Assembly: GCF_916049665.1 (NCBI RefSeq)
Contig: NZ_CAJZIE010000001.1
Coordinates: 1,223 to 65,222 of the forward strand
Reading direction: 5' to 3'
Source of the DNA: an uncultured Rothia sp.
GTDB taxonomy: Bacteria > Actinomycetota > Actinomycetes > Actinomycetales > Micrococcaceae
DNA length: 64,000 bases
Shown here in pieces: positions 16,996 to 41,893 of the stretch. The notes below the pieces were generated by a model that worked only from the letters and a program-made list of their open reading frames with translations, ran no database searches and was not told where the DNA came from. Both the position numbers and the translations under genes were made by a program. Each line of letters begins with the position of its first letter. Positions within the stretch are counted from its first letter, which is position 1.

Positions 16996-18702
16996 ATGAC
17001 CACTTTCACCCTCAACCGTCGTACCCTGCTCACCGGCACCGTTGCCCTGGGTACCGTCGGCCTGCTCGCAGCCTGCGGCGGCAACTCCTCCAAGAACGAA
17101 ACCAGCGCTCTCTCCGCCGGCGACGACCTCTCCAAGGCAGTCTCCTACAACGAGAAGGACCGCTCCGCCCTCAAGGACGGCGGCGAGCTGCGACTGAGCG
17201 CAGACGGCATTGGCCCGAACTTCAACATCCTCAACACCAACGGCTACACCGCCGGTAACCTGAATATTCAGGCGGCTATCAACTCTGCCTTCACCGGCGG
17301 CTTCTACGCTGACTTCCGCGGCGAGTCGCACATGAACAAGGACTACGTCACCGAATACAAGGCGCAGACCGTTGACGGCGTGCAGACCGTGACCTTCAAG
17401 ATCAACCCCAAGGCAGCCTTCAACGACGGTACCCCCATCGACGTGAACGCCGTCAAGAGCTACCAGACCATCTACACCGCCGCGGCATCCGGTTCGGACT
17501 ACCAGATCACCCCCTCGCCCATCTGGGAACAGGTCGCAAGCGTCGAGGCTGTGGACGGCGATACCCGCCACGTGAAGGTCACCATGTCCAAGCCCTGGTA
17601 CCCCATCGAAGGCAGCTTCACCTCGTTCCTGCACCCGGCATTCGCCGACCCCAAGTTCTTCAACGACGGCCTGAACGACAAGCCCCTCGACCAGTACTGG
17701 GCAGGTCCCTTCAAGGTCGGCGAGTGGAACTCCTCCTCCAAGGTGCTCACCGTCGTCCGCAACGAGAAGTGGTGGGGCACCAAGCCCGCTCTTGAGCGCA
17801 TCACCTGGCGTGAAATGAGCTCCCAGGCAGAGCAGGCAGCTTACAAGAACGGCGAAATCGACTACGTGGATGCCAGCACCCTCAGCTCCTACAACGAGCT
17901 CTCCGGCGTGGCAAACACCGACATTCGCAAGGGTAGCGCTCTCAGCGTGGGCAACTACGAAATCAACCCCGAAAAGGTGCCCCTGCCCGTCCGCCGCGCA
18001 TTCGTTGCAGCCCTCAACCGTGAGCAGCTGCAGAAGCTGCGCTACGAGAAGCTCGGCTGGAAGGAAACCCTGCCCGGCTCCATGTGCATGCTGCCCATGC
18101 AGGAAGGCTACCAGGACAACTACCCGACCAAGCTCGGCAAGGACGTCGCTACCAAGATCCTTGAGGACGCAGGCTACACCAAGTCCGGTGACTACTACAC
18201 CAAGGACGGCGCTAAGGTCTCCTACCCGGTCATCACCTTCGGTAGCGACCCGGTTGTCAGCTCCACCGCGCAGTTCCTCGTCCAGCAGATGAAGGAAATC
18301 GGCGTTGAACTGACCATCGAGAACCACGGTGCCTCTGAAATGTCGAGCATCATCTCCTCGAAGAACTTCGCGATTAAGACCGGTGGCTACGGCATCACCA
18401 CCTCCCCGGTGGATGCGGCGAACTACTTCTACATCTCCGAGACCAACAACGGTCACGGTAAGGATCTGGACTCGCTGGCAGCAACCATGATGTCCACCGA
18501 GGACCCGAAGGAACAGCTCAAGATCATGAACGAGCTGGAGAAGCGCCACCTGGACGAGGTCGCCATCTACGTGCCCACCCACAACGGCCCGAACTTCAAG
18601 GCGTGCCGTAAGGGCCTGGCGAACTACGGCCCCATGCTCTTCGGCCTGCCCTACTACAACCCGAACGTATGGATCAACGTCGGTTGGGAGAAGCAAAACT
18701 AA
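16996..18702 (+). CDS. ABC transporter substrate-binding lipoprotein, family 5, paralog 5
   Basis: RBS 'gaggaaa'. Signal 'NRRTLLTGTVALGTVGLLAACGGN'. Confidence 0.85.
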   Translation: MTTFTLNRRTLLTGTVALGTVGLLAACGGNSSKNETSALSAGDDLSKAVSYNEKDRSALKDGGELRLSADGIGPNFNILNTNGYTAGNLNIQAAINSAFTGGFYADFRGESHMNKDYVTEYKAQTVDGVQTVTFKINPKAAFNDGTPIDVNAVKSYQTIYTAAASGSDYQITPSPIWEQVASVEAVDGDTRHVKVTMSKPWYPIEGSFTSFLHPAFADPKFFNDGLNDKPLDQYWAGPFKVGEWNSSSKVLTVVRNEKWWGTKPALERITWREMSSQAEQAAYKNGEIDYVDASTLSSYNELSGVANTDIRKGSALSVGNYEINPEKVPLPVRRAFVAALNREQLQKLRYEKLGWKETLPGSMCMLPMQEGYQDNYPTKLGKDVATKILEDAGYTKSGDYYTKDGAKVSYPVITFGSDPVVSSTAQFLVQQMKEIGVELTIENHGASEMSSIISSKNFAIKTGGYGITTSPVDAANYFYISETNNGHGKDLDSLAATMMSTEDPKEQLKIMNELEKRHLDEVAIYVPTHNGPNFKACRKGLANYGPMLFGLPYYNPNVWINVGWEKQN

Positions 18703-27472: not shown

Positions 27473-28243
27473 TCAGCGCTCCGGCAGAATCAACAAACGA
27501 TTCGTCACCGGATGCCTCAACACCTCAATCGGATGCTGATACACCTCAGACAACAACTCCGCCGAACACACCTGCTCAGGGGTGCCCGAAGCAACCACCT
27601 CGCCACCACGCAACAACACCATACGGTCAGAATACGCAGCCGCTACATCCAGGTCATGAAGCACGGTCAACACCGCGGCACCCTCGGCAGCCAACTCACG
27701 GCTCACCCGCAACGTCTGCTCCTGATGTGTAATATCCAACGCCGCAGTCGGCTCATCCAAAAGAATCAGCGGAGTCTGCTGAGCAAACACACGTGCCAAA
27801 TGCGCACGGCCACTTTCGCCACCGGACAGGGTCGTAATATCGCGATCCGACAAATGAGTCACCGACGTGCGCTCCATCATCGAAGCGACCACGGCATCAT
27901 CCTCTTCAGCGCGCTCCGTACCCTTCCACGGGGTGCGGCCCATCTGAACCACTTCATGCACCGTGTACGAAAACGCCACATTCAACTTCTGCAGTAGCAT
28001 CGCACGCTGACGAGCCATCTGACGGGCAGGAATCGAACCCAGGGGGGCGCCATCCAGCAGAATCTCACCGCTACTGCGCGCAATATCACCAGCAATCACA
28101 CCCAACAGAGTGGACTTACCGGCACCATTGGGACCAATTAGCGACACAACCTCGCCCGCAGAAACCGACAGAGACACATCATTCAGAATCTGGCGCCCAC
28201 CAGCGTTAAAACACACACCGGACAGGCTTAACAACTCACTCAC
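27473..28243 (-). CDS. hmuV: heme/iron-siderophore ABC transporter ATP-binding protein
   Basis: Walker A 'GPNGAGKST'. FecE/HmuV-like size of 256 aa. Overlaps the permease upstream. Confidence 0.8.
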   Translation of the reverse strand: MSELLSLSGVCFNAGGRQILNDVSLSVSAGEVVSLIGPNGAGKSTLLGVIAGDIARSSGEILLDGAPLGSIPARQMARQRAMLLQKLNVAFSYTVHEVVQMGRTPWKGTERAEEDDAVVASMMERTSVTHLSDRDITTLSGGESGRAHLARVFAQQTPLILLDEPTAALDITHQEQTLRVSRELAAEGAAVLTVLHDLDVAAAYSDRMVLLRGGEVVASGTPEQVCSAELLSEVYQHPIEVLRHPVTNRLLILPER

Positions 28244-29319
28244 GAAGCACCTCCGCCCTGACCCAGAGAACGACGCAACAAGACAAAGAACGTCGGGCCG
28301 CCCACCAGAGCCGTAAAAATACCAATCGGCAAATCAGCAAAAGGCACCAGCGTACGCGCACCCAAATCAGATAGCGCAATCAACAGAGCGCCACCCAACG
28401 CCGAAGCCGGCAACAGTACACGATTCGACGGACCCAAAATCATGCGCAACAGGTGAGGAATAATCAGACCAATAAACGCAATAATGCCCGCATACGCCAC
28501 CGCGGCACCCGTCAACAAAGCCGTCGCCGCAATAGACACCGCACGTAGGCGCTCCACATTCACACCCGAATGCTGCGCCGCGCGCTCACCCAACGCCAGA
28601 ACATCCAGCGAAGAAGCCATCACGAAACACGCCACCAAGCCAATCAGAATGACCGGCCACACGCTCGCAACAGCCTTCCACGTGGCGCCGTTCAGCGAAC
28701 CCATCTGCCAGAACACAATCTGATCGCGGCTCGTCGTATCAGCAATGAACATGAGGAACGCAATAATCGCATTCGCCACCGCGGTCACCGCAATACCCGT
28801 CAAAATCATCGACAGGACCTTAGCACGCCCCGAAGAACGCGACAGGAAATACACCAGCGCGGTAGCCGCCAGCGCACCCACAAACGCGAACGCGGGAGTC
28901 GTGAAAATGCCGAAGAACTGCAGGTTCAACACAATCGACAAACACGCGCCAACCGCCGCACCCGAGGAAACACCAATCACGCCCGGCTCAGCCAGCGGGT
29001 TACCGAACACCGACTGCATCACCGCACCGGAAGTGCCCAACGCGGCACCCACCAGCACACCCAACAGCACACGCGGGAAACGGATATTCCACAGCGTATT
29101 ATCGGCAAGCTGCATCGCCGGGTTCTCCGGCACAAAACCCAGACGGCGGCCCACAGAAGCAATCACCTGATCAGTCGGGATATTGTACTGACCCAAACCC
29201 GCAGACAGCACCATCACGGCGCACAGCGCCACCGCCAAAAACGTAAACGTCAGACCGGCACGACGCCGACGCGACGCACGATAATCCCTCGCGCCCGCCG
29301 CACTCTTCACGGCAGCCAC
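28240..29319 (-). CDS. hmuU: heme/iron ABC transporter permease, FecCD family
   Basis: 359 aa polytopic protein with FecCD-type architecture. Translationally coupled to hmuT and hmuV. Confidence 0.8.
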   Translation of the reverse strand: MAAVKSAAGARDYRASRRRRAGLTFTFLAVALCAVMVLSAGLGQYNIPTDQVIASVGRRLGFVPENPAMQLADNTLWNIRFPRVLLGVLVGAALGTSGAVMQSVFGNPLAEPGVIGVSSGAAVGACLSIVLNLQFFGIFTTPAFAFVGALAATALVYFLSRSSGRAKVLSMILTGIAVTAVANAIIAFLMFIADTTSRDQIVFWQMGSLNGATWKAVASVWPVILIGLVACFVMASSLDVLALGERAAQHSGVNVERLRAVSIAATALLTGAAVAYAGIIAFIGLIIPHLLRMILGPSNRVLLPASALGGALLIALSDLGARTLVPFADLPIGIFTALVGGPTFFVLLRRSLGQGGGAS

Positions 29320-30482
29320 TACTGGGCTCCCGCAGGAGTCGAGTACGCAGCCTTAGCCAGCGACAGCAACACCGCCGGAGTATTCGGGCCGTAGGACAGA
29401 ATCTGACCGTCACCCATATCGATAATGCGCTTATTCTTACCGGCAGTCGTCTCACCCACACCCGGGCGAGCCAAGAAACCATCCAAACCACCGGTGGACT
29501 TAATGCCGCCGCTCATGGTCAGAATGACGTCCGGGTTCAGCTTCACCAGCGCCTCACTGGTCGCCGGAATAATATTCGTCGCGTTCTGCTCAGACGCCAC
29601 ATCCTTGCCGCCAATAGCCTGAATCAAATCATCAGCGCCAGAGCCCTTACCGAGCACGAAGAACACGCCAGCGGTACCGCGCACGTACAGGAACGCGAAC
29701 GACACCTGCTGCTCGCCCTTCGGTGCAACCTCCTTGAGTACCTGCAGGGCGTAATCCAGGTCCTTCTGCACGCGGGCGGCAACCTGCTCGCCCGCCTCCG
29801 GAACACCCAGCGCCTGCGCCACAGCCTTGAGCTGCGGAATGATCTTATCCATGCGGCGCTCATGGTCGAAGACCACAACGGTCACACCCGCCGCGCGCAG
29901 CTGATCCACAATCTCAATCGGGCCGTTGCTCTTATCCCACAGCACCAGGTCAGGGGAGGTCGCCAGAATCGCCTCAGCATTCAGGTCGTGACCGTTCTGA
30001 GTCACCAGCGGAAGATGAGCCAGCGACTGCTCCGTCGAGGAGGTGACGCGACCCACCAGGCGGCCGCCCAGACCCAATGCAATCATCTGCTGAGCCAGAG
30101 TGCCGTACAGGTCCAGCGCCAGCACACGGTCAGCGGACTTAACGGTCACCTCAGTGCCGTTGAAATCCTTGAACGTCACGGGGAAAGCCGGAGTGGGGGT
30201 ATCGACCATCGGCTGAATTTCGGGGGTATCCGCCGCGCTATTGGGGCCGCGCAGAGCCTTCTGATCAGGGGCAATAGAAGAACGCAGCTGATCTGCCAGG
30301 TTCTCCAAAACGGTGCGGGTGCTCTGCTCATCCACCACAGCCTGCGACGTGTTCGAAGAAGCAGACGGGTTCTGAGTACCCACGCCGCAAGAGCTCAACA
30401 GGAACGCGGAGGTGATGGAGAACGCCGCATACTTCATTGCATCGCGGCGGTTCAGGGCAGAAGAAGAAAGAGAAGAAAACAT
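29319..30482 (-). CDS. hmuT: heme ABC transporter substrate-binding lipoprotein (class III periplasmic binding protein)
   Basis: Lipobox 'AFLLSSCG'. Periplasmic binding protein fold typical of HmuT/FecB. Sits in an operon with the FecCD permease and ATPase. Confidence 0.75.
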   Translation of the reverse strand: MFSSLSSSALNRRDAMKYAAFSITSAFLLSSCGVGTQNPSASSNTSQAVVDEQSTRTVLENLADQLRSSIAPDQKALRGPNSAADTPEIQPMVDTPTPAFPVTFKDFNGTEVTVKSADRVLALDLYGTLAQQMIALGLGGRLVGRVTSSTEQSLAHLPLVTQNGHDLNAEAILATSPDLVLWDKSNGPIEIVDQLRAAGVTVVVFDHERRMDKIIPQLKAVAQALGVPEAGEQVAARVQKDLDYALQVLKEVAPKGEQQVSFAFLYVRGTAGVFFVLGKGSGADDLIQAIGGKDVASEQNATNIIPATSEALVKLNPDVILTMSGGIKSTGGLDGFLARPGVGETTAGKNKRIIDMGDGQILSYGPNTPAVLLSLAKAAYSTPAGAQ

Positions 30483-30666
30483 CGTCGTCTCACAGAGAAA
30501 AAGGGAGCTAGAAAAACTGGGGTAGGTGCCGGGGCAAAATCTGGCACCTGAAGCGGGGGTGCAGTGAAAATCTGCACCCCCGCACGGACCGTGTCAGCTC
30601 ACCGGTGAACCTCATGGTTGAGTCTCACGGGCGAGCCGACAGTGTGGGCATCCTCGTGAGGTGCCG

Positions 30667-33021
30667 CTATGCCTTCTTGCGGCGGCGAGTGTACACGACG
30701 GTACCCGCACCGGCCGCGACAGCGATGAAGCCAGCAACCAGGGTGCCCTCAACACCGGACGCACCGGTGGAAGCCAGGGGCTTGCCGGTGACCGGGTCGC
30801 AACCCTCACCCTCGTAGACGGTCTCGGTCACGGTCTTGGTGGTGGTCTTAGCGCCGTTGATTGCTGCGGAGAAGCTCAGCGGAGCCATGTCCTTACCAGC
30901 CTCGTAGAAGCCAGCGAATGCCTTCGCGCCCTCAGCGGTCAGAGCGGTTGCCGCACCGTTGACGCTCACAGCCTCGGCGGAGCTCTGCAGACCGGACAGA
31001 TCCACCTTCAGCAGTGCCACCTCACCGTAGTTAGTTGCCTTGCCGGAGGAGTCATTGCTGTTCATGGTCGCGTAGAGAGTACCGGAATTGCCGTTAATCT
31101 CGAGGCGCGGGTTCGCAATGGTGGTGTCCAGAATGCCGTGGTGACCGGTGAAACGAACCGAACCGCTGAAGGAGATGGAACCCTTACCGCCCTTGAAGGT
31201 GCCGGTGCCGTTAGACCAGTTGAACGCATCCGAAGAGTAGGAGGTGCCGTTCAGCTCCCAGCTACCGTTCGCGATGCCGCCGCGCACGTAGTTGCGGAAG
31301 GAATCACGCACGCCCCAGCCGAGGTTAGCGCTCTTAATGGTGCCGTCGGATGCGCCCTGCTCCTGTACCTCGCGGGTGCGGGTGACGGGTACGCAGACAG
31401 GCTGTGCCGGGTTGTTGCTGACAGAGCCATTCGAGGAGGAACCGCCGTTAGAGACGCTGCCGGAGGTGCCTGCCGAACCACCAGAACCGGAGCCGCTCGC
31501 GCCGGAGTTACCGGAGGAGTTCGAGGAGCTGTTATCGGAGGAGCCGTTCTCAGAACCCTTGTTGTCGGAGGACTTGTCCTCAGAGACGCGCGGAACCTCA
31601 ACGGTGTTCTCCGCGGTCTGCTCGCTGAGCTTTACGGAGAAGCTCAGCGGTGCCATGGCGTTGTCGGAGCCGCGGTACTGGCCCGCGAAGAGAACCTCGG
31701 AGCCTTCATTGGTGAGGGCAACCGCCGCGTTCTGCGCGGAGAAAACCCCGTCCTTCACGCTCGCGCCGGAGAGGTCTACCTCGGCGATAGCCAAGCCGGT
31801 CTTGGAGATGGACTTACCGTCGCGGGTCAGCGCGTCAACATCGGCGACCAAGGTGCCCTTACCGTTGACGACGACCAGGCGCATGTTCTTGATGGTGCTC
31901 TTGAGCTGACCGTTGTGGCCGGTGAACTCTGCGGTGCCCGCAAAGTTGATCTGACCGGTCTTGGTCTCGGGGTTGTACACGCCGGATGCCTGAGTGTACT
32001 TCAGGCCGCCTGCCGCGGTCTTCTCCAGACCGTCAACGTTCACGGAGCCGTGGGCGAAGCTGGTCAGGTACTTCAGGAAGGACTCGCGGATATCCCAGCT
32101 GAGGGTGCCGGACTCGACGACGTTGCCGGTGACCTTCTCTTCACGCTTGGGCTCGGTGGTTGCGGCGGGGGAGGAGGGCACCGCGGAGGTGGGGGCTGCG
32201 CTCGGCGCTGCAGAAGTGGGCTCGGCGGGCTTGGGTGCCTCGCTGGTCGGTGCGGAGGAAGGCTCGCTGCTGGGCTCTGCGGTCGGCGCTGCAGTCGGCT
32301 CGGCGCTGGGCTCAGTGGAAGGTGCGGGCGCGGGTGCTTCCTTGGTCACGATGGTTGCGGAGAAGCCGAGCGCATCCAGCTCCTGACCTGCCTTGTAGAA
32401 GCCGGCGAAGGCGCCGGTTGCCTCTTCGGAGAGCTTGACGCGGGTGCCGTTTTCTTCGTCAACGCTGGGCAGGGTGATGGTGTTACCCTCAACCTTCAGG
32501 CCGGAGGCGTTGAAGGTACCGATGGTCATGTTCTTGGTTTCGACCAGGTCGTTCGGGGTGGTGTTGCCGTTGTAGGGGCGCGACTGAACGTTGGCGCGCA
32601 CGGTGCCCACGCCGTCCTTAATGGTGACGGAGAGGTCGGAGATGATGACTTCCAGCAGGCCGTGGTGTGCGGTGTAGTGGATCGAGGAACCGGTGAAGGT
32701 GACGGAGTATTCGCCGTTGGCTACGGTGCCTTCGGCGGAGGTGAAGTGGTAGGAGCCGTCTTCGTTGGTGGTGACGCCGGTCAGTTCCTGAGAGCCCTGG
32801 GAGAAGGGGCCGTTGATGTAGGAGCGGAAGGACTTCTTCAGACCCCAGTTGACGGTGACGTCCTGCAGGCTCTGCTCTGAGGCTGCGGTTACCTCACTGG
32901 CGCTGATGTGGGAGTTGGTTTCAGCTGCGAAGGCTGCGGGTACGCCGGCGACGCCGCTGAGGCCGATGGTTGCTGAAGCCAAGAACGCCCAAGTGCGCTT
33001 GGTGAGAGAGGGGGTAGACAT
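30667..33021 (-). CDS. htaA: cell-wall-anchored heme-binding protein, HtaA-like, with three CR domains and an LAxTG (LASTG) sortase signal
   Basis: N-terminal signal peptide. Three repeats with the HtaA CR-domain signature (e.g. 'SFRNYV...VRFTGHHGILDTTIANPRLEINGNSGTLYA', with conserved Y and H). Ser/Gly/Asn-rich and Pro/Ala/Glu-rich linkers. C-terminal 'LASTG', a hydrophobic segment and 'RRRKKA'. Adjacent to hmuTUV. Confidence 0.8.
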   Translation of the reverse strand: MSTPSLTKRTWAFLASATIGLSGVAGVPAAFAAETNSHISASEVTAASEQSLQDVTVNWGLKKSFRSYINGPFSQGSQELTGVTTNEDGSYHFTSAEGTVANGEYSVTFTGSSIHYTAHHGLLEVIISDLSVTIKDGVGTVRANVQSRPYNGNTTPNDLVETKNMTIGTFNASGLKVEGNTITLPSVDEENGTRVKLSEEATGAFAGFYKAGQELDALGFSATIVTKEAPAPAPSTEPSAEPTAAPTAEPSSEPSSAPTSEAPKPAEPTSAAPSAAPTSAVPSSPAATTEPKREEKVTGNVVESGTLSWDIRESFLKYLTSFAHGSVNVDGLEKTAAGGLKYTQASGVYNPETKTGQINFAGTAEFTGHNGQLKSTIKNMRLVVVNGKGTLVADVDALTRDGKSISKTGLAIAEVDLSGASVKDGVFSAQNAAVALTNEGSEVLFAGQYRGSDNAMAPLSFSVKLSEQTAENTVEVPRVSEDKSSDNKGSENGSSDNSSSNSSGNSGASGSGSGGSAGTSGSVSNGGSSSNGSVSNNPAQPVCVPVTRTREVQEQGASDGTIKSANLGWGVRDSFRNYVRGGIANGSWELNGTSYSSDAFNWSNGTGTFKGGKGSISFSGSVRFTGHHGILDTTIANPRLEINGNSGTLYATMNSNDSSGKATNYGEVALLKVDLSGLQSSAEAVSVNGAATALTAEGAKAFAGFYEAGKDMAPLSFSAAINGAKTTTKTVTETVYEGEGCDPVTGKPLASTGASGVEGTLVAGFIAVAAGAGTVVYTRRRKKA

Positions 33022-33117
33022 TCGGTGTCTCCTTGAATTAGTGATTGTGGTGTTCGTATCAAGTCTAGACCTATTAGCCTATGTTTGTGTAACTTAATGC
33101 CTAGGGTGACTTGTGCA

Positions 33118-33134
33118 TAAGGTTTACCTTAGCA
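33118..33134. promoter_or_regulatory. DtxR/IdeR-like palindrome (TAAGGTTTACCTTA) in the htaA-hmuO divergent region
   Basis: Perfect 6-2-6 palindrome resembling the iron-box half-sites TTAGG...CCTAA. Lies ~100 bp upstream of the htaA start. Confidence 0.4.
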
Positions 33135-33167
33135 AATTTTTTGTGGGGGCTATTGCCAAAACTGGTT

Positions 33168-33211
33168 TTTGGTGACAATATGTCATTAACAGTTTGGTGA
33201 CACAGTGTCAT
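33168..33211. promoter_or_regulatory. two tandem palindromic operators (TTTGGTGACA-N-TGTCAT) upstream of hmuO
   Basis: 'tttggtgacaatatgtcat' and 'tttggtgacacagtgtcat' are spaced 25 bp apart, at -88 to -45 relative to the hmuO ATG. Confidence 0.5.
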
Positions 33212-33255
33212 CAAAACCTTTATTGTTCACCCACAAGTCGCTATAGGAGCTCACC

Positions 33256-33918
33256 ATGACTATTACCGCCCCCGAAACCACCCAGGAACGCTTCTCCGCA
33301 CGCCTGAAGGAAAGCACCAAGCACGTCCACGACAACGCCGAACACTCCACCTTCATGGAAGACCTCATGGGCGGCGCCCTCAACACCGAGGCATACCTGC
33401 GCCTCATCAACCAGTACGTGCACATCTACGAAGCACTCGAAGCAGTCTCCGCACACTACCGCGCAGAACCCAACCCCATCACCGAACCCTTCACCCAGCC
33501 CGGCCTCGACCGCGCAGAATACATCCGTGCAGACATCCGCGCACTCGGCCAGGAAGGCGACATCGATGCGCCCCTGCCCGCAACCGCAGAGTACGTAGAG
33601 CGCATCCGCGCCACCATCAACTCCCCCGAACGCTACCTCGCACACCACTACCTGCGCTACCTCGGCGACCTCTCCGGCGGCCAGGCCGTCGCAGCGCTCG
33701 TCAACCGCCACTACGGCATCCCCGCCGAAGCACTGAGCATGTACCGCTTCACCGAACTGCCCAAGCCCAAGGTCTTCAAGGACGGCTACCGCGAACTGCT
33801 CGACAACGCACCCCTGACCGACGAACAGCGCGAGGCCCTCATCGAAGAGTGCATCGAAGGCTTCCGCATCAACGCCTCCCTGTTCGCGCAGCTGGGCCGC
33901 CAGGTCGCTGAGGCATAA
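33256..33918 (+). CDS. hmuO: heme oxygenase
   Basis: 'FSARLKESTKHVHDNAEHSTFMEDLM' matches the heme oxygenase proximal-helix region (catalytic His). 220 aa. RBS 'aggag'. Divergent from the htaA-hmuTUV cluster. Confidence 0.85.
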   Translation: MTITAPETTQERFSARLKESTKHVHDNAEHSTFMEDLMGGALNTEAYLRLINQYVHIYEALEAVSAHYRAEPNPITEPFTQPGLDRAEYIRADIRALGQEGDIDAPLPATAEYVERIRATINSPERYLAHHYLRYLGDLSGGQAVAALVNRHYGIPAEALSMYRFTELPKPKVFKDGYRELLDNAPLTDEQREALIEECIEGFRINASLFAQLGRQVAEA

Positions 33919-37592: not shown

Positions 37593-38543
37593 TTACGCCT
37601 CGAGGGGCGGAAGATAGCGCTCGCACACCGCAAGCAGGCGCTCACGCAGCTCAATCGAACGCTCCGACAGCTCACGCTGAATCCGCACGTACTCGGCCTT
37701 ACCCTCGGTCGTCTCCACCGGAATCGGCTCGTACCCCCAGTCACGAATATCGTAGGGGGCCGCGCGCATATCCAGTTCGCGCGCATCCCACGCCAGATCG
37801 AAACAATCCATGACCAGGGTCGAATCAACCAGCGGCAGAAGCTTGTACGCCCACTTGTACACGTCCATATTCGCGTGCAGGCATGCCGGCTGCTCCAGTA
37901 CGCGCTGCAACTCGCGGGTCGGCTGTAGCTCGTTCATCGGTGCTGCCTGCGGCATGAAGAAACGGAACGCATCAAAGTGCGAGCAGCGGATGCGGTGCTC
38001 CTCCACCACGCGGTCCGTGCCCTCCGCACCCAGGCGCAGCTGTAGGTAGTCGTGGCGGATATTGTTCTCCACCGACTTGTACGCCATCGCCCACTCGTGC
38101 ATGCCGAAGCATCCGAACTGGCCCTTCTTCGCGGCGGTGTTGCGCAGGATCTCGTGGGTGAAGGCGAGAGCGGTAGCACGGCGCTCCACAAAATCGGTGA
38201 CGTCCACAGTGACGGCGGAGGCGGCATCCACCCGGGCACGCGCCTGCTCGGGGGTGCAACCCGCCTCGAGCAGCTCCCGCTCGGTTGCGAGGCGGTAAAA
38301 ACGCCAGGAGGCGCGCTCGGGCGCATCCAGCAGAATGACCCCGGCGCCGGGGTGCCAGCGCTTGAACTGGCCGGGCTTGAGAGTGTAGTAGGTGAAGAGG
38401 AAGTCCTCAACGGGGTGCACCTCGTGGCGGGCGCGACGCTGCGCAAACGGGTCAGCGTAGCGGCCGGCACGCGCCTCATGCGCTACCGCGGCGGCACGCC
38501 ACTCGGAGCCATCCATCACCTGGGAAAACACAACACTACTCAT
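37593..38543 (-). CDS. conserved hypothetical protein (resembles an actinobacterial family annotated as '3-methyladenine DNA glycosylase'-like)
   Basis: 316 aa with coding GC3 bias and motifs 'FTYYTLKPGQ' and 'GMHEWAMAY'. Family assignment is from memory and is uncertain. Confidence 0.4.
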   Translation of the reverse strand: MSSVVFSQVMDGSEWRAAAVAHEARAGRYADPFAQRRARHEVHPVEDFLFTYYTLKPGQFKRWHPGAGVILLDAPERASWRFYRLATERELLEAGCTPEQARARVDAASAVTVDVTDFVERRATALAFTHEILRNTAAKKGQFGCFGMHEWAMAYKSVENNIRHDYLQLRLGAEGTDRVVEEHRIRCSHFDAFRFFMPQAAPMNELQPTRELQRVLEQPACLHANMDVYKWAYKLLPLVDSTLVMDCFDLAWDARELDMRAAPYDIRDWGYEPIPVETTEGKAEYVRIQRELSERSIELRERLLAVCERYLPPLEA

Positions 38544-40777: not shown

Positions 40778-41893
40778 TTAGGTCCACGGGTTCACGTAAG
40801 TGACACCCGGCAGCGGCGGAACATCCGGCTTCGGGGTGCGCAACGGGGCGTTCTGAATCGAGCGGATCTTCTCCTCATAATCGGGGGTGCGGAACACCTC
40901 CGGAGCATCCTCCGACTGCTCAGGCGCGGGCGCCTCTGCGGGGTCGGAGGCGGCGCTCGCCGGAGCCTCCTCGGCAGAGTCTTCGCCCAGGTCAGGGGTG
41001 GATTCCGCGGCGGTTTCAGCATCGGCAGGGGAGTCCTCATCGCGGGATTCCTCAGCCCCCTGCAGAACCTGCTCAATCAGCTGCTCATCCACGGTGCCCT
41101 GCACGCCTTCAGCCGCCTGCGGGGCGGAAACGGCAGAAACCTCAGAATCCAGGTCATCGAACATGCTCGAATTCCAGCGGCGACGGGTCTGCTTCGCCTC
41201 CTGAGCCTGAACCTGAGCCGCCTGCTCACGCTCCTGCTCCTCCTCGCGGTTCACGCGCTCAAAATCCTCGGCGGCAGTATGAGCCACCGCCGTGCCCTCG
41301 CTAATGACGCGGCGACCCTCCAATGCGCGGCCCAGGGTAATCTCATCCGCGTACTCCAGGTCGCCACCGACCGGCAGACCCGACGCCAGGCGCGAGAGGC
41401 GCACACCCAACGGCACGAGCATGCGCGAGAGGTAGGTTGCGGTCGCCTCACCCTCAAGGTTCGGGTCCATCGCCAGAATAATCTCTTGGATACGCTCATC
41501 CGCCAGGCGGGACACCAGCTCGCGGATACGCAGCTGCTCCGGGCCCACGCCCGCCAGCGGGTTAATGGCGCCGCCGAGCACGTGGTAACGACCGGTAAAG
41601 GAGCGGGTACGCTCAATCGCGACCACGTCCTTGGACTCCTCGACCACGCACAGCACCGACGGGTCGCGGCGCTCATCACGGCAAATCGAGCACAGTTTCG
41701 TCTCGGAGACGTTACCGCACTCCTCACAGAAGCTCACGCTGGTTTTCACCGTGGAAATCGCGTTGGCCAGGCGTGCCATATCGGCAGCGTCCGCATTCAG
41801 AATGTGAAAAGCGATGCGCTGAGCCGACTTAGGACCCACGCCCGGCAGGCGTCCGAGCTCGTCAATGAGGTTTTGAACTGCTCCCTCGTACAA
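40778..41893 (-). CDS. recR: recombination protein RecR with a ~170 aa acidic low-complexity C-terminal extension
   Basis: The first ~200 aa are canonical RecR (HhH '[17 protein letters not shown]', C4 zinc finger '[16 protein letters not shown]', Toprim). The remaining ~170 aa are Glu/Asp/Ala/Gln/Pro-rich. Confidence 0.85.

What the first reader, a model, noticed from the sequence alone, without database searches (positions are those of the whole stretch)
30667..33021. Corynebacterium-style heme acquisition module: an LASTG-anchored HtaA-like protein with three CR domains next to hmuTUV
The 784-aa protein has an N-terminal signal peptide and three copies of the HtaA conserved-region fold, each with the FTGH(N/H)G...L signature and conserved Tyr/His heme ligands. 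It also has long Ser/Gly/Asn and Pro/Ala/Glu/Ser linkers and a C-terminal LASTG sorting signal, which is the LAxTG class-E sortase motif. It lies immediately upstream of hmuT-hmuU-hmuV. Described HtaA proteins carry two CR domains, so a three-domain, sortase-anchored variant is a notable elaboration. Low-complexity linkers of this kind are often glycosylated in actinobacteria.
Basis: partly seen in the sequence, partly recalled or inferred. Interest (0 to 1): 0.55.

Follow-up and report, generated by a model that had tools for sequence, protein, structure and literature searches.

The report
Wall-anchored three-domain heme receptor in Rothia
This Rothia mucilaginosa gene encodes a surface protein with three heme-capturing domains and a cell-wall sorting signal, next to a heme importer and a heme-degrading enzyme; it is real, but it is a common, already annotated kind of actinobacterial iron-scavenging system.

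Summary
A 784-aa ORF on the minus strand (30667-33021) carries three complete HtaA/CR domains, at 130-172 bits each against a Pfam cutoff of 24. All three keep the axial Tyr, helper His, Ser and propionate Tyr. The protein also has a signal peptide, two low-complexity linkers and an LASTG sorting signal.

It sits directly upstream of hmuT, hmuU and hmuV. HmuT keeps the heme ligands of C. glutamicum HmuT. The gene is divergent from hmuO. The organism is Rothia mucilaginosa, not Corynebacterium, and an identical protein is already in NCBI as "HtaA domain-containing protein".

The novelty claim is overstated. Among the top 150 of 2284 CR cluster representatives, 116 have three or more CR domains and 89 carry an LAxTG or LPxTG signal. 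The same module recurs in Kocuria, Arthrobacter, Arcanobacterium, Ruania, Sanguibacter and Streptomyces. Only Corynebacterium, the one characterised case, uses transmembrane anchors and at most two CR domains per protein.

New here is a conserved Cys pair that brackets the wall-proximal CR domain in 128 of 150 representatives. In Rothia it sits at the ends of a confidently predicted two-strand extension.

Most likely function: an iron-regulated, sortase-anchored heme receptor or relay feeding HmuTUV, analogous to Isd/NEAT. No sortase gene was located, and glycosylation was not tested.

The parts
30667..33021 (-). Gene for a 784-aa HtaA-family protein with three CR domains (including the stop codon)
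   Evidence: ORF list and translation. Pfam HtaA E=1.3e-123 in 3 stretches. 100% identical to an NCBI 'HtaA domain-containing protein [uncultured Rothia sp.]'.
33029..33034 (-). Ribosome-binding site AAGGAG, 7 nt upstream of the ATG
   Evidence: Read from the sequence.
32926..33021 (-). Signal peptide, residues 1-32, with predicted cleavage at AFA|AE
   Evidence: By inspection of the translation: basic n-region (TKR), hydrophobic core, AxA site. No consistent twin-arginine motif among relatives.
32341..32871 (-). CR domain 1 (residues 51-227): Ser64, axial Tyr68, helper His119 (YTAHHG), Phe208-Tyr209
   Evidence: Pfam 129.6 bits over profile positions 2-164. PDB 8smu 1.5e-18. Residue mapping.
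32122..32340 (-). Linker 1 (residues 228-300), Ala/Pro/Ser/Glu/Thr-rich; the only site of strain-to-strain indels
   Evidence: Composition and within-species variation. Weak 12-bp tandem repeats. Sub-threshold PT-repeat hit.
31618..32121 (-). CR domain 2 (residues 301-468): Ser314, Tyr318, His369 (FTGHNG), Gln448-Tyr449 (Gln replaces the cap Phe)
   Evidence: Pfam 132.8 bits. PDB 8smu 6.9e-16. Residue mapping.
31396..31617 (-). Linker 2 (residues 469-542), Ser/Gly/Asn-rich
   Evidence: Composition. Weak 12-bp repeats.
31360..31395 (-). Cys543 plus the N-flank beta-strand (residues 544-554) that precedes CR3
   Evidence: AF2 model: strand at model residues 9-19, block pLDDT about 86. Cys543 is invariant in 120 Rothia homologs. 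A Cys is found at this flank in 128/150 family representatives.
30850..31341 (-). CR domain 3 (residues 561-724), wall-proximal: Ser574, Tyr578, His627 (FTGHHG), Phe705-Tyr706
   Evidence: Pfam 172.2 bits. PDB 8smu 4.4e-39. AF2 mean pLDDT 94.2. Superposes on C. glutamicum HtaA C-terminal domain 6jsa at rmsd 1.2 A, TM 0.94, 44% identity.
30799..30843 (-). C-flank beta-strand (residues 727-737) and Cys741 in the YEGEGC motif
   Evidence: AF2 strand at model residues 192-202. Cys741 is invariant. The two flanking Cys co-occur in the family: both 128, neither 20, one only 2.
30670..30777 (-). Cell-wall sorting signal (residues 749-784): LASTG, hydrophobic segment, TRRRKKA tail
   Evidence: Translation. 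TIGR01167 16.6 bits against cutoff 15.9; NF058582 Microco_LAVTG 20.3 bits, below its cutoff of 27. LASTG is invariant in 120/120 Rothia homologs. LAxTG is the class E sortase signal (PMC5148588).
30553..30583 (-). Perfect 12-bp GC-rich hairpin in the 184-nt htaA-hmuT spacer; possible attenuator, terminator or mRNA stabiliser
   Evidence: A 71-nt fold gives -36 kcal/mol, z=-4.07, and 0/200 shuffles fold as well. It is identical in other R. mucilaginosa strains. Different hairpins occupy the same position in R. aeria and Kocuria.
29319..30482 (-). hmuT: heme-binding lipoprotein of the ABC importer, with lipobox LLSS|C at Cys32
   Evidence: Peripla_BP_2 1.2e-29. PDB 5az3 CgHmuT 6.7e-79, with His165/Tyr266/Arg268 aligned to the heme ligands His141/Tyr240/Arg242 (ligands from PMC4926363, abstract).
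28240..29319 (-). hmuU: FecCD-family permease
   Evidence: PF01032 2.2e-92.
27473..28243 (-). hmuV: heme ABC transporter ATPase
   Evidence: NF010068 'heme ABC transporter ATP-binding protein' 302.7 bits against cutoff 261.
33118..33136 (.). DtxR/IdeR-like iron box TAAGGTTTACCTTAGCAAA in the divergent htaA/hmuO promoter region
   Evidence: 15/19 match to TWAGGTWAGSCTWACCTWA, the single best score in the 64-kb window. Boxes of 14-15/19 at the equivalent position are the best or joint-best of their loci in R. aeria, Kocuria and Galactobacter.
33168..33214 (.). Two tandem 22-bp palindromic sites (TTTGGTGACA-N3-TGTCAT(T/C)AA, 25-bp spacing) just upstream of hmuO; candidate operator of a second regulator
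   Evidence: TGACA-N3-TGTCA is conserved twice in R. aeria and once in Kocuria.
33256..33918 (+). hmuO: heme oxygenase, divergently transcribed
   Evidence: PF01126 1.2e-46. PDB 1iw0 C. diphtheriae HmuO 9.9e-45.

Best explanation
This is the surface heme receptor of the Rothia mucilaginosa heme-uptake locus (htaA-like gene, hmuT, hmuU, hmuV, and divergent hmuO). The precursor is most likely exported through Sec. Its LASTG signal is then cut between Thr and Gly by a housekeeping class E sortase, and the protein is linked covalently to peptidoglycan. That leaves three CR beta-sandwich domains strung on two flexible low-complexity linkers across the thick wall of this monoderm, non-mycolate actinobacterium. 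Each domain binds ferric heme through an axial Tyr, held by a helper His, with Ser and Tyr contacting a propionate. Heme captured by the distal domains is passed inward to CR3. CR3 sits on a short two-strand stalk, probably stapled by a Cys543-Cys741 disulfide. From CR3 heme goes to the lipoprotein HmuT, then through HmuUV into the cell, where HmuO opens the ring and releases iron. Transcription is probably repressed by a DtxR/IdeR-type repressor when iron is plentiful. SHOWN: three complete CR domains with intact pocket residues; the CR fold of CR3; the sorting-signal anatomy; the hmuTUV/hmuO identities and ligand conservation; synteny across genera. INFERRED: heme binding, sortase processing, directional relay, the disulfide, and iron regulation.
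For: There are three full-length CR domains well above cutoff, and each hits solved CR structures. The CR3 model has pLDDT 94.2 and superposes on 6jsa at 1.2 A. The pocket residues named in PMC12494546 are present in all three domains and invariant in 120 Rothia homologs. Family-wide, the axial Tyr is kept in every domain rank: 150/150, 147/150, 115/116 and 35/38. HmuT is 6.7e-79 to CgHmuT with His/Tyr/Arg ligands aligned. HmuV passes the heme-ABC equivalog cutoff. HmuO is 1e-44 to C. diphtheriae HmuO. The CR protein + hmuTUV (+ hmuO) module recurs in Rothia, Kocuria, Galactobacter, Arthrobacter, Specibacter, Arcanobacterium, Buchananella, Ruania, Streptomyces and Corynebacterium; for Sanguibacter (L075) only the three-CR LATTG protein was recovered in the fetched DNA. 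The sorting signal passes TIGR01167. LASTG is invariant in 120/120 strains, and LAxTG/LPxTG is present in 89/150 family representatives. LAxTG is the class E sortase signal (PMC5148588). The best DtxR-like box of the window lies in the promoter region, and a comparable box lies at the equivalent position in R. aeria, Kocuria and Galactobacter, though not in the Arthrobacter locus. For the Cys pair, the counts are both 128, neither 20, one 2, and the pair is specific to the last CR domain. The flanks are predicted as ordered strands. The CR N- and C-terminal strands are neighbours in one sheet (PMC11725911).
Against: No sortase gene was found in the 64-kb window or within 10 kb of any of 75 related loci, and the rest of the Rothia genome could not be searched. 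The NCBIfam Microco_LAVTG model scores below its cutoff, 20.3 against 27. The DtxR-like box matches only 15/19, and three other sites in the window reach 14/19. No heme-binding, localisation or expression data exist for Rothia. CR2 lacks the cap Phe (it has Gln448), so its affinity may differ. The Cys-Cys distance could not be measured because the tool returns no model coordinates. C. diphtheriae HtaA and ChtA are partly released as soluble hemophores by proteolysis (PMC12873794), so the Rothia protein may not act purely as a wall-bound relay.
Confidence: 0.82

Rival explanations
1. The protein is tail-anchored in the membrane rather than sortase-linked. The C-terminal hydrophobic segment plus RRRKK tail stays as a transmembrane anchor, as in Corynebacterium HtaA, HtaB and ChtA, and LASTG is not processed or only partly processed.
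For: All characterised CR proteins are held by a C-terminal TM helix (PMC12494546; PMC12873794). The C-tail of a Streptomyces 'HtaA domain LPXTG protein' integrates into membranes in a reporter assay (PMC10924467). No sortase gene was located here. 57 of 150 family representatives have a TM-like tail without a sorting motif.
Against: LASTG is invariant in 120/120 Rothia variants while the neighbouring stalk residues vary. LAxTG sits at the same distance from the C-terminus in orthologs from many genera whose tails otherwise differ. The signal passes TIGR01167. A sortase substrate is transiently membrane-anchored anyway, so the reporter result does not argue against later cleavage.
Confidence: 0.12
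2. The protein acts mainly as a released hemophore. Proteases cut the linkers and shed soluble single-CR fragments that scavenge heme at a distance, so the wall-bound form is only a precursor.
For: C. diphtheriae sheds HtaA31-272, HtaA273-555 and ChtA30-314, and S. aureus sheds IsdA fragments (PMC12873794). The Rothia linkers are long, low-complexity and the most polymorphic parts of the protein.
Against: No protease site or data exist for Rothia. The conserved, ordered, Cys-bracketed stalk next to the sorting signal suggests a functional wall-proximal domain. This rival is compatible with the main explanation rather than exclusive of it.
Confidence: 0.3
3. The domains divide the labour as in IsdH. 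One or two distal CR domains bind host hemoproteins (hemoglobin, or haptoglobin-hemoglobin) rather than heme, and only CR3 is the heme acceptor.
For: IsdH and IsdB use some NEAT domains for hemoglobin and one for heme (general knowledge). A CR-like fold does bind hemoglobin in C. diphtheriae HbpA (PMC11725911). CR1 and CR2 are only 25-32% identical to CR3, and CR1 carries a 12-residue insertion.
Against: CR1 and CR2 keep every heme-pocket residue apart from the Phe-to-Gln cap change in CR2. These residues are invariant within the species and conserved in distal domains family-wide. HbpA, by contrast, shares only about 14-18% identity with heme-binding CR domains.
Confidence: 0.12

Closest known systems
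Corynebacterium diphtheriae / C. glutamicum HtaA (htaA-hmuTUV locus; structures 8SMU, 9O0J, 6JS9, 6JSA)
   Same: It has the same domain family (PF04213) and the same fold; the CR3 model is 1.2 A from 6JSA. It has the same Tyr/His/Ser/Tyr heme pocket, the same gene order htaA-hmuT-hmuU-hmuV, an HmuT with identical heme ligands, an HmuO-type oxygenase, and a likely DtxR-type control. A Cys pair also brackets the CR domains.
   Different: It has three CR domains rather than two, and an LASTG sorting signal rather than a plain C-terminal TM helix. It has long low-complexity linkers. Only the last CR is Cys-bracketed, whereas every CR is bracketed in Corynebacterium. CR3 carries a roughly 20-residue two-strand extension on each flank that is absent from the crystallised constructs. 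No HtaB, ChtA or HbpA partner was found in the window. The host is a monoderm without a mycomembrane.
Uncharacterised multi-CR LAxTG proteins of other Actinobacteria (Kocuria, Arthrobacter, Galactobacter, Arcanobacterium, Buchananella, Ruania, Sanguibacter); the Streptomyces 'HtaA domain LPXTG protein' WP_129815067.1
   Same: The architecture is the same: 2-4 (up to 7) CR domains, a Cys-bracketed last CR and an LAxTG signal. Except for Sanguibacter (L075), where only the three-CR LATTG protein was recovered, they share the hmuTUV/hmuO neighbourhood. This is the group the Rothia protein belongs to.
   Different: Domain number and linker length vary. Streptomyces pairs a 2-CR TM protein with a 2-CR LAxTG protein, and some of its members have Tat signal peptides (PMC10924467). 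Rothia has KR, not RR.
Isd system of Staphylococcus aureus (IsdH with three NEAT domains, IsdB, IsdA, IsdC; sortase A/B; IsdEF; IsdG/I)
   Same: The logic is the same: sortase-anchored, multi-domain heme receptors spanning the peptidoglycan, Tyr-ligated heme, hand-off to a lipoprotein and ABC permease, then a cytoplasmic heme-degrading enzyme, all under iron-repressor control.
   Different: The fold is unrelated; there is no NEAT hit in Pfam. The signal is LAxTG with a presumed class E sortase, not LPXTG/NPQTN with SrtA/SrtB. One polypeptide carries all three heme domains. This is an analogue, not a member.
C. diphtheriae HbpA (CR-like hemoglobin receptor)
   Same: It has a CR-related beta-sandwich displayed on the surface through a low-complexity stalk (PMC11725911).
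   Different: HbpA binds hemoglobin, not heme, and shares only about 14-18% identity with heme-binding CR domains. The Rothia domains keep the whole heme pocket.

Membership tests
HtaA / CR-domain family (Pfam PF04213) | Profile match above the gathering threshold for each claimed domain | tested here: met
   129.6, 132.8 and 172.2 bits against cutoff 24, each covering profile positions 1/2-164.
HtaA / CR-domain family (Pfam PF04213) | CR beta-sandwich fold | tested here: met
   CR3 AF2 model: pLDDT 94.2, and TM 0.94 / rmsd 1.2 A to 6jsa. CR1 and CR2 were tested by sequence only, full-length alignments to 8smu/6jsa at 1e-18 and 7e-16.
HtaA / CR-domain family (Pfam PF04213) | Axial Tyr in helix alpha1 (S-x-x-x-Y), with conserved Ser and a propionate-binding Tyr in the alpha2-beta11 loop | tested here: met
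   S64/Y68/Y209, S314/Y318/Y449 and S574/Y578/Y706. Tyr578 and Tyr706 are invariant columns in 51 diverse domains.
HtaA / CR-domain family (Pfam PF04213) | Helper His (or Tyr) in the beta6-beta7 loop | tested here: met
   His119, His369 and His627 align with the His mutated in 6jsc, the H434A variant.
HtaA / CR-domain family (Pfam PF04213) | Actual hemin binding | not testable with these tools
   This needs recombinant domains and spectroscopy or ITC.
HtaA sensu stricto (characterised Corynebacterium HtaA) | Exactly two CR domains | tested here: not met
   Three domains. [quoted passage not shown]
HtaA sensu stricto (characterised Corynebacterium HtaA) | C-terminal TM-helix anchor without a sortase motif | tested here: not met
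   LASTG precedes the hydrophobic tail. Corynebacterial loci show TM tails without a motif.
HtaA sensu stricto (characterised Corynebacterium HtaA) | Gene immediately upstream of hmuTUV | tested here: met
Sortase (class E) substrates | Tripartite C-terminal sorting signal: LAxTG, a hydrophobic stretch, and a basic tail within about 35 residues of the C-terminus | tested here: met
   LASTG at 749-753, then 31 residues ending TRRRKKA. TIGR01167 is above cutoff. LASTG is invariant in 120 homologs.
Sortase (class E) substrates | N-terminal secretion signal | tested here: inconclusive
   A typical Sec-like n/h/c region with AFA|AE is seen by inspection. No signal-peptide predictor was available.
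Sortase (class E) substrates | Cognate class E sortase encoded in the genome | not testable with these tools
   No TLxTC-type sortase ORF is in the window or in the +/-10 kb flanks of 75 loci.
Sortase (class E) substrates | Covalent linkage to peptidoglycan | not testable with these tools
   This needs cell fractionation and mass spectrometry.
DtxR/IdeR regulon | 19-bp palindromic iron box in the promoter | tested here: inconclusive
   15/19 at 33118-33136, the best score in the window. A comparable box is at the equivalent position in three other genera and is the best or joint-best of each locus. The match is imperfect, there are no binding data, and the regulator gene was not sought.
Isd / NEAT heme receptors | NEAT domain | tested here: not met
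   No NEAT family appears among the Pfam hits. It works like an Isd receptor but is not one.

The most novel reading that the evidence does not exclude
In monoderm (non-mycolate) Actinobacteria, CR-domain proteins form a single-polypeptide, sortase-E-anchored heme wire across the peptidoglycan. This would be a convergent counterpart of the Firmicute Isd/NEAT relay. Its wall-proximal CR domain would carry a previously undescribed disulfide-stapled stalk (Cys543-Cys741 in Rothia, conserved in about 85% of multi-CR proteins and around every corynebacterial CR domain). The stalk would be needed for oxidative folding, protease resistance, or correct positioning for hand-off to HmuT.
Probability: 0.4. 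Interest if true: 0.5.

Novelty: new member of a known kind. Interest (0 to 1): 0.3.

Why it matters
Rothia mucilaginosa is one of the most abundant commensals of the mouth and airways and an opportunist in cystic fibrosis lungs, yet its heme uptake has only been mentioned in passing (PMC3667864). Everything known mechanistically about CR-domain heme capture comes from Corynebacterium, which has an outer mycomembrane and anchors its CR proteins with TM helices. This locus, and the many loci like it, show that outside Corynebacterium the usual design is a sortase-signal-bearing protein with two to four or more CR domains. That gives a simple model for asking how heme crosses a thick Gram-positive wall using CR rather than NEAT domains. 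The conserved Cys pair around the wall-proximal domain is a concrete, testable structural feature that the solved constructs may have trimmed away. None of this overturns current understanding; it extends a known system to new hosts.

Tried and rejected
- **Corynebacterium origin:** rejected. The best hits are Rothia mucilaginosa at 97-100% identity.
- **Sortase in the window or near related loci:** none found. The only TLxTC hit is a 101-aa spurious ORF at 17499-17804, and there is none in 75 loci. Searches for Rothia with sortase or LPXTG gave nothing useful.
- **A second CR locus in Rothia (L027):** rejected. It is the C-terminal half of the same gene, split by a contig break in a MAG.
- **Tat export:** the N-terminus has KR, and relatives show RR, KR, QR or TR at that position, so there is no consistent twin-arginine motif. 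Sec is assumed, not proven.
- **Other CR-domain ORFs in the window:** none.
- **Structure prediction with an alignment built from fetched loci:** It succeeded with sub-sequences of the representative-search proteins. Model coordinates are not returned, so the Cys-Cys distance could not be measured.
- **Matching the TGACA-N3-TGTCA sites to the HrrA/ChrA motif:** the published motif appears only in a figure, so this is unresolved.
- **The long + strand ORF at 30661-32880 (739 aa):** treated as a shadow ORF of the GC-rich gene. Its translation is Gly/Ala/Arg-rich nonsense.
- **Rothia + HtaA in the literature:** zero papers.


Full report
**Observation**

The coordinates 30667-33021 delimit a real 784-codon ORF, but on the minus strand. 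It starts at an ATG preceded by AAGGAG at a 7-nt spacing. The 739-aa ORF on the plus strand is a GC-rich shadow frame.

Pfam finds HtaA (PF04213) at E=1.3e-123 in three stretches. I cut the protein into three pieces and scanned each. Every piece matches the whole 164-position profile, at 129.6, 132.8 and 172.2 bits against a gathering score of 24. Each piece on its own also finds the solved CR structures, with C. diphtheriae HtaA-CR2 (8smu) as the best hit at 1.5e-18, 6.9e-16 and 4.4e-39.

An AlphaFold2 model of residues 536-748, built on 30 diverse sequences, has mean pLDDT 94.2. It superposes on the C. glutamicum HtaA C-terminal domain (6jsa) at 1.2 A rmsd, target-normalised TM 0.94 and 44% identity. 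Three CR domains are therefore certain.

**Heme pocket**

The structural paper PMC12494546 defines the universally conserved CR residues:
- an axial Tyr in helix alpha1;
- a Ser four residues before it;
- a Tyr in the alpha2-beta11 loop, which with the Ser holds a propionate;
- a helper His (Tyr in ChtA) in the beta6-beta7 loop;
- usually a capping Phe.

In the window protein these are as follows:

| Domain | Ser | Axial Tyr | Helper His | Cap / propionate pair |
|---|---|---|---|---|
| CR1 | S64 | Y68 | H119 | F208-Y209 |
| CR2 | S314 | Y318 | H369 | Q448-Y449 |
| CR3 | S574 | Y578 | H627 | F705-Y706 |

CR1 reads YTAHHG rather than FTGH, and CR2 has Gln at the cap position. All of these residues are invariant in 120 Rothia homologs. 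Across 150 family representatives the axial Tyr is kept in every domain rank: 150/150, 147/150, 115/116 and 35/38. Distal domains of multi-CR proteins therefore look like genuine heme binders, not degenerate spacers.

**Ends of the protein**

The N-terminus (MSTPSLTKRTWAFLASATIGLSGVAGVPAAFA|AE) has the shape of a Sec signal peptide. Close relatives carry RR, KR, QR or TR at the basic position, so there is no consistent Tat motif.

The C-terminus is LASTG, then ASGVEG, then an 18-residue hydrophobic stretch, then TRRRKKA. It passes TIGR01167 at 16.6 against 15.9, and it approaches but does not reach the NCBIfam 'Microco_LAVTG' model at 20.3 against 27. LASTG is invariant in 120/120 Rothia variants. 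LAxTG is the experimentally established signal of class E sortases (PMC5148588), which are housekeeping sortases of Actinobacteria (PMC9282373).

I could not find the enzyme. There is no sortase-like ORF in the window or in the 10-kb flanks of 75 related loci, and the remaining genome was out of reach.

**Neighbourhood**

Three genes follow on the same strand:
- a lipoprotein (lipobox LLSS|C) that is 6.7e-79 to C. glutamicum HmuT, with His165, Tyr266 and Arg268 aligned to the heme ligands His141, Tyr240 and Arg242 (PMC4926363);
- a FecCD permease;
- an ATPase that passes the NCBIfam heme-ABC equivalog cutoff.

A heme oxygenase is divergently transcribed. Its closest solved relative is C. diphtheriae HmuO at 1e-44.

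The 234-bp divergent promoter region holds the best DtxR/IdeR-like box of the whole 64-kb window, 15/19 at 33118-33136. Boxes of 14-15/19 lie at the equivalent position in R. aeria, Kocuria and Galactobacter and are the best or joint-best of their loci; the Arthrobacter locus has no comparable box. Iron repression is therefore plausible but not proven.

**Organism and prior annotation**

The protein is 100% identical to an NCBI entry, 'HtaA domain-containing protein [uncultured Rothia sp.]', and 97% identical to R. mucilaginosa proteins. The locus is found in R. mucilaginosa genomes, including a complete one. 'Corynebacterium-style' is therefore right as a description of the system, but the host is a Micrococcaceae member. 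No paper in the library mentions Rothia together with HtaA. [quoted passage not shown]

**How unusual is it?**

I built a profile from the three Rothia CR domains and searched it against 1.84 billion cluster representatives. It found 2284 proteins. Of the best 150:
- 116 have three or more CR domains, with up to six or seven;
- 89 carry an L[PA]xT[GAS] sorting signal, mostly LAxTG;
- 57 have a TM-like tail.

Named examples come from Rothia/Kocuria, Curtobacterium, Microbacterium, Actinomycetaceae, Arcanobacterium haemolyticum, Ruania and Jiangella. All are annotated simply as HtaA domain-containing proteins.

In 75 loci from reference genomes:
- Three- or four-CR LAxTG proteins sit next to hmuTUV in Rothia, Kocuria, Galactobacter, Arthrobacter, Specibacter, Arcanobacterium, Buchananella, an Actinomycetaceae bacterium and Ruania. 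hmuO is also present in the Micrococcaceae loci. In Sanguibacter only the three-CR LATTG protein was recovered.
- Streptomyces pairs a two-CR TM protein with a two-CR LAxTG protein.
- Only Corynebacterium shows the textbook two-CR-plus-one-CR, TM-anchored set.

The 'elaboration', however, is the common form outside the one genus that has been studied.

**Something not in the finding: a conserved Cys pair**

The protein has exactly two cysteines, C543 and C741. They lie 18 residues before and 17 residues after CR3.

In the 150 representatives, the last (anchor-proximal) CR domain is flanked by a Cys on both sides in 128 cases, on neither side in 20, and on one side in only 2. Other domain ranks are bracketed in 22/150, 10/116 and 3/33 cases. 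Of 68 proteins with exactly two Cys, 61 place both around the last CR. In Corynebacterium every CR domain is bracketed.

The AF2 model predicts the Rothia flanks as ordered beta-strands. Residues 544-554 follow directly after C543, and residues 727-737 end just before C741. These roughly 45 residues have no counterpart in the crystal constructs: query-normalised TM is 0.74 against target-normalised 0.94. In the CR fold the first and last strands are neighbours in one sheet (PMC11725911).

The simplest reading is a disulfide that closes a two-strand stalk under the wall-proximal domain. I could not measure the distance. The structural papers I read mention only a different, intra-loop disulfide in ChtA.

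**Mechanism**

Putting this together, the protein is most likely a Sec-exported, sortase-E-anchored, iron-regulated heme receptor. Its three Tyr-ligating CR domains are spread across the peptidoglycan by two flexible linkers. Heme would pass to HmuT, then HmuUV, then HmuO.

The linkers are the most polymorphic parts of the protein, with 24-30% of sites variable against 6-16% in the domains. Linker 1 carries the only indels.

This protein works like the Isd/NEAT relay of Firmicutes, and like IsdH in having three heme-type domains on one sortase substrate. It is not a member of that family, because there is no NEAT domain. Proteolytic release of soluble CR fragments, as in C. diphtheriae, is compatible with this picture and remains untested. 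Glycosylation of the linkers is speculation.

**Verdict**

The functional interpretation is essentially right. The novelty is overstated. This is a well-conserved, already annotated member of a widespread but experimentally unstudied branch of the HtaA/CR family. Interest is modest at 0.3. The most useful leads are the Cys-bracketed stalk and the chance to study CR-based heme transfer in a monoderm, sortase-anchored setting.

Noticed in passing
window 31393-31395 (Cys543) and 30799-30801 (Cys741); family-wide in P0121-P0270 and L020-L075: A conserved Cys pair brackets the anchor-proximal CR domain: both 128, neither 20, one 2 of 150 representatives. It is far rarer around other domains, but it surrounds every CR domain in Corynebacterium. 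In Rothia the two Cys sit at the ends of two flanking strands that AF2 predicts as ordered, which suggests a disulfide-stapled stalk. The structural papers I read do not mention it.
   Followed up: yes
window 33168-33189 and 33193-33214: Two tandem copies, 25 bp apart, of a palindromic 22-mer (TTTGGTGACA-N3-TGTCAT(T/C)AA) lie just upstream of hmuO and overlap the only sigma70-like promoter hit. TGACA-N3-TGTCA is conserved twice in R. aeria and once in Kocuria. This is a candidate operator for a second, possibly heme-responsive, regulator. The regulator is unknown.
   Followed up: partly
window 33118-33136: The best DtxR/IdeR-like box of the whole window (15/19) lies in the htaA/hmuO divergent promoter. 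Comparable boxes occupy the same position in R. aeria, Kocuria and Galactobacter.
   Followed up: partly
window 30553-30583 (minus strand), in the 184-nt htaA-hmuT spacer: There is a perfect 12-bp GC-rich hairpin (71-nt fold -36 kcal/mol, z=-4.07) with no clear T-tract. It is identical in other R. mucilaginosa strains. R. aeria and Kocuria have different hairpins at the same position. It may attenuate read-through into hmuTUV or stabilise the htaA mRNA.
   Followed up: partly
L001 and L027 (the same Rothia MAG, two contigs): The gene is split across two contigs in a metagenome-assembled genome, somewhere between the start of CR1 and the middle of CR2. Such breaks can mimic a second, shorter 'two-CR' gene.
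   Followed up: yes
L024, L029, L035-L073 (Streptomyces loci): Streptomyces consistently encodes two adjacent two-CR proteins, one with a TM-like tail and one with LAxTG, between hmuTUV and hmuO. This may be a built-in membrane-plus-wall relay pair.
   Followed up: partly
window 33021 region, protein residues 7-14 (TKRTWAFL): The signal-peptide n-region has KR where several relatives (Kocuria, R. uropygialis) have RR. Some HtaA-domain proteins are reported to be Tat-dependent (PMC10924467). The export route in Rothia is therefore not settled.
   Followed up: partly
window 40778-41893 (minus strand): RecR (HhH, Zn finger, Toprim and RecR_C domains end at residue 195) carries a further extension of about 175 residues that is acidic, Ala/Glu/Pro-rich and low-complexity. 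This is unusually long for RecR.
   Followed up: no
window 37593-38543 (minus strand): A 316-aa ORF between purQ and an HTH_17 protein has no Pfam match at E<=0.001.
   Followed up: no
window 30661-32880 (plus strand): A 739-aa ORF lies antisense to the htaA-like gene. Its translation is Gly/Ala/Arg-rich and it is best explained as a shadow frame of a GC-rich gene, not a gene.
   Followed up: no
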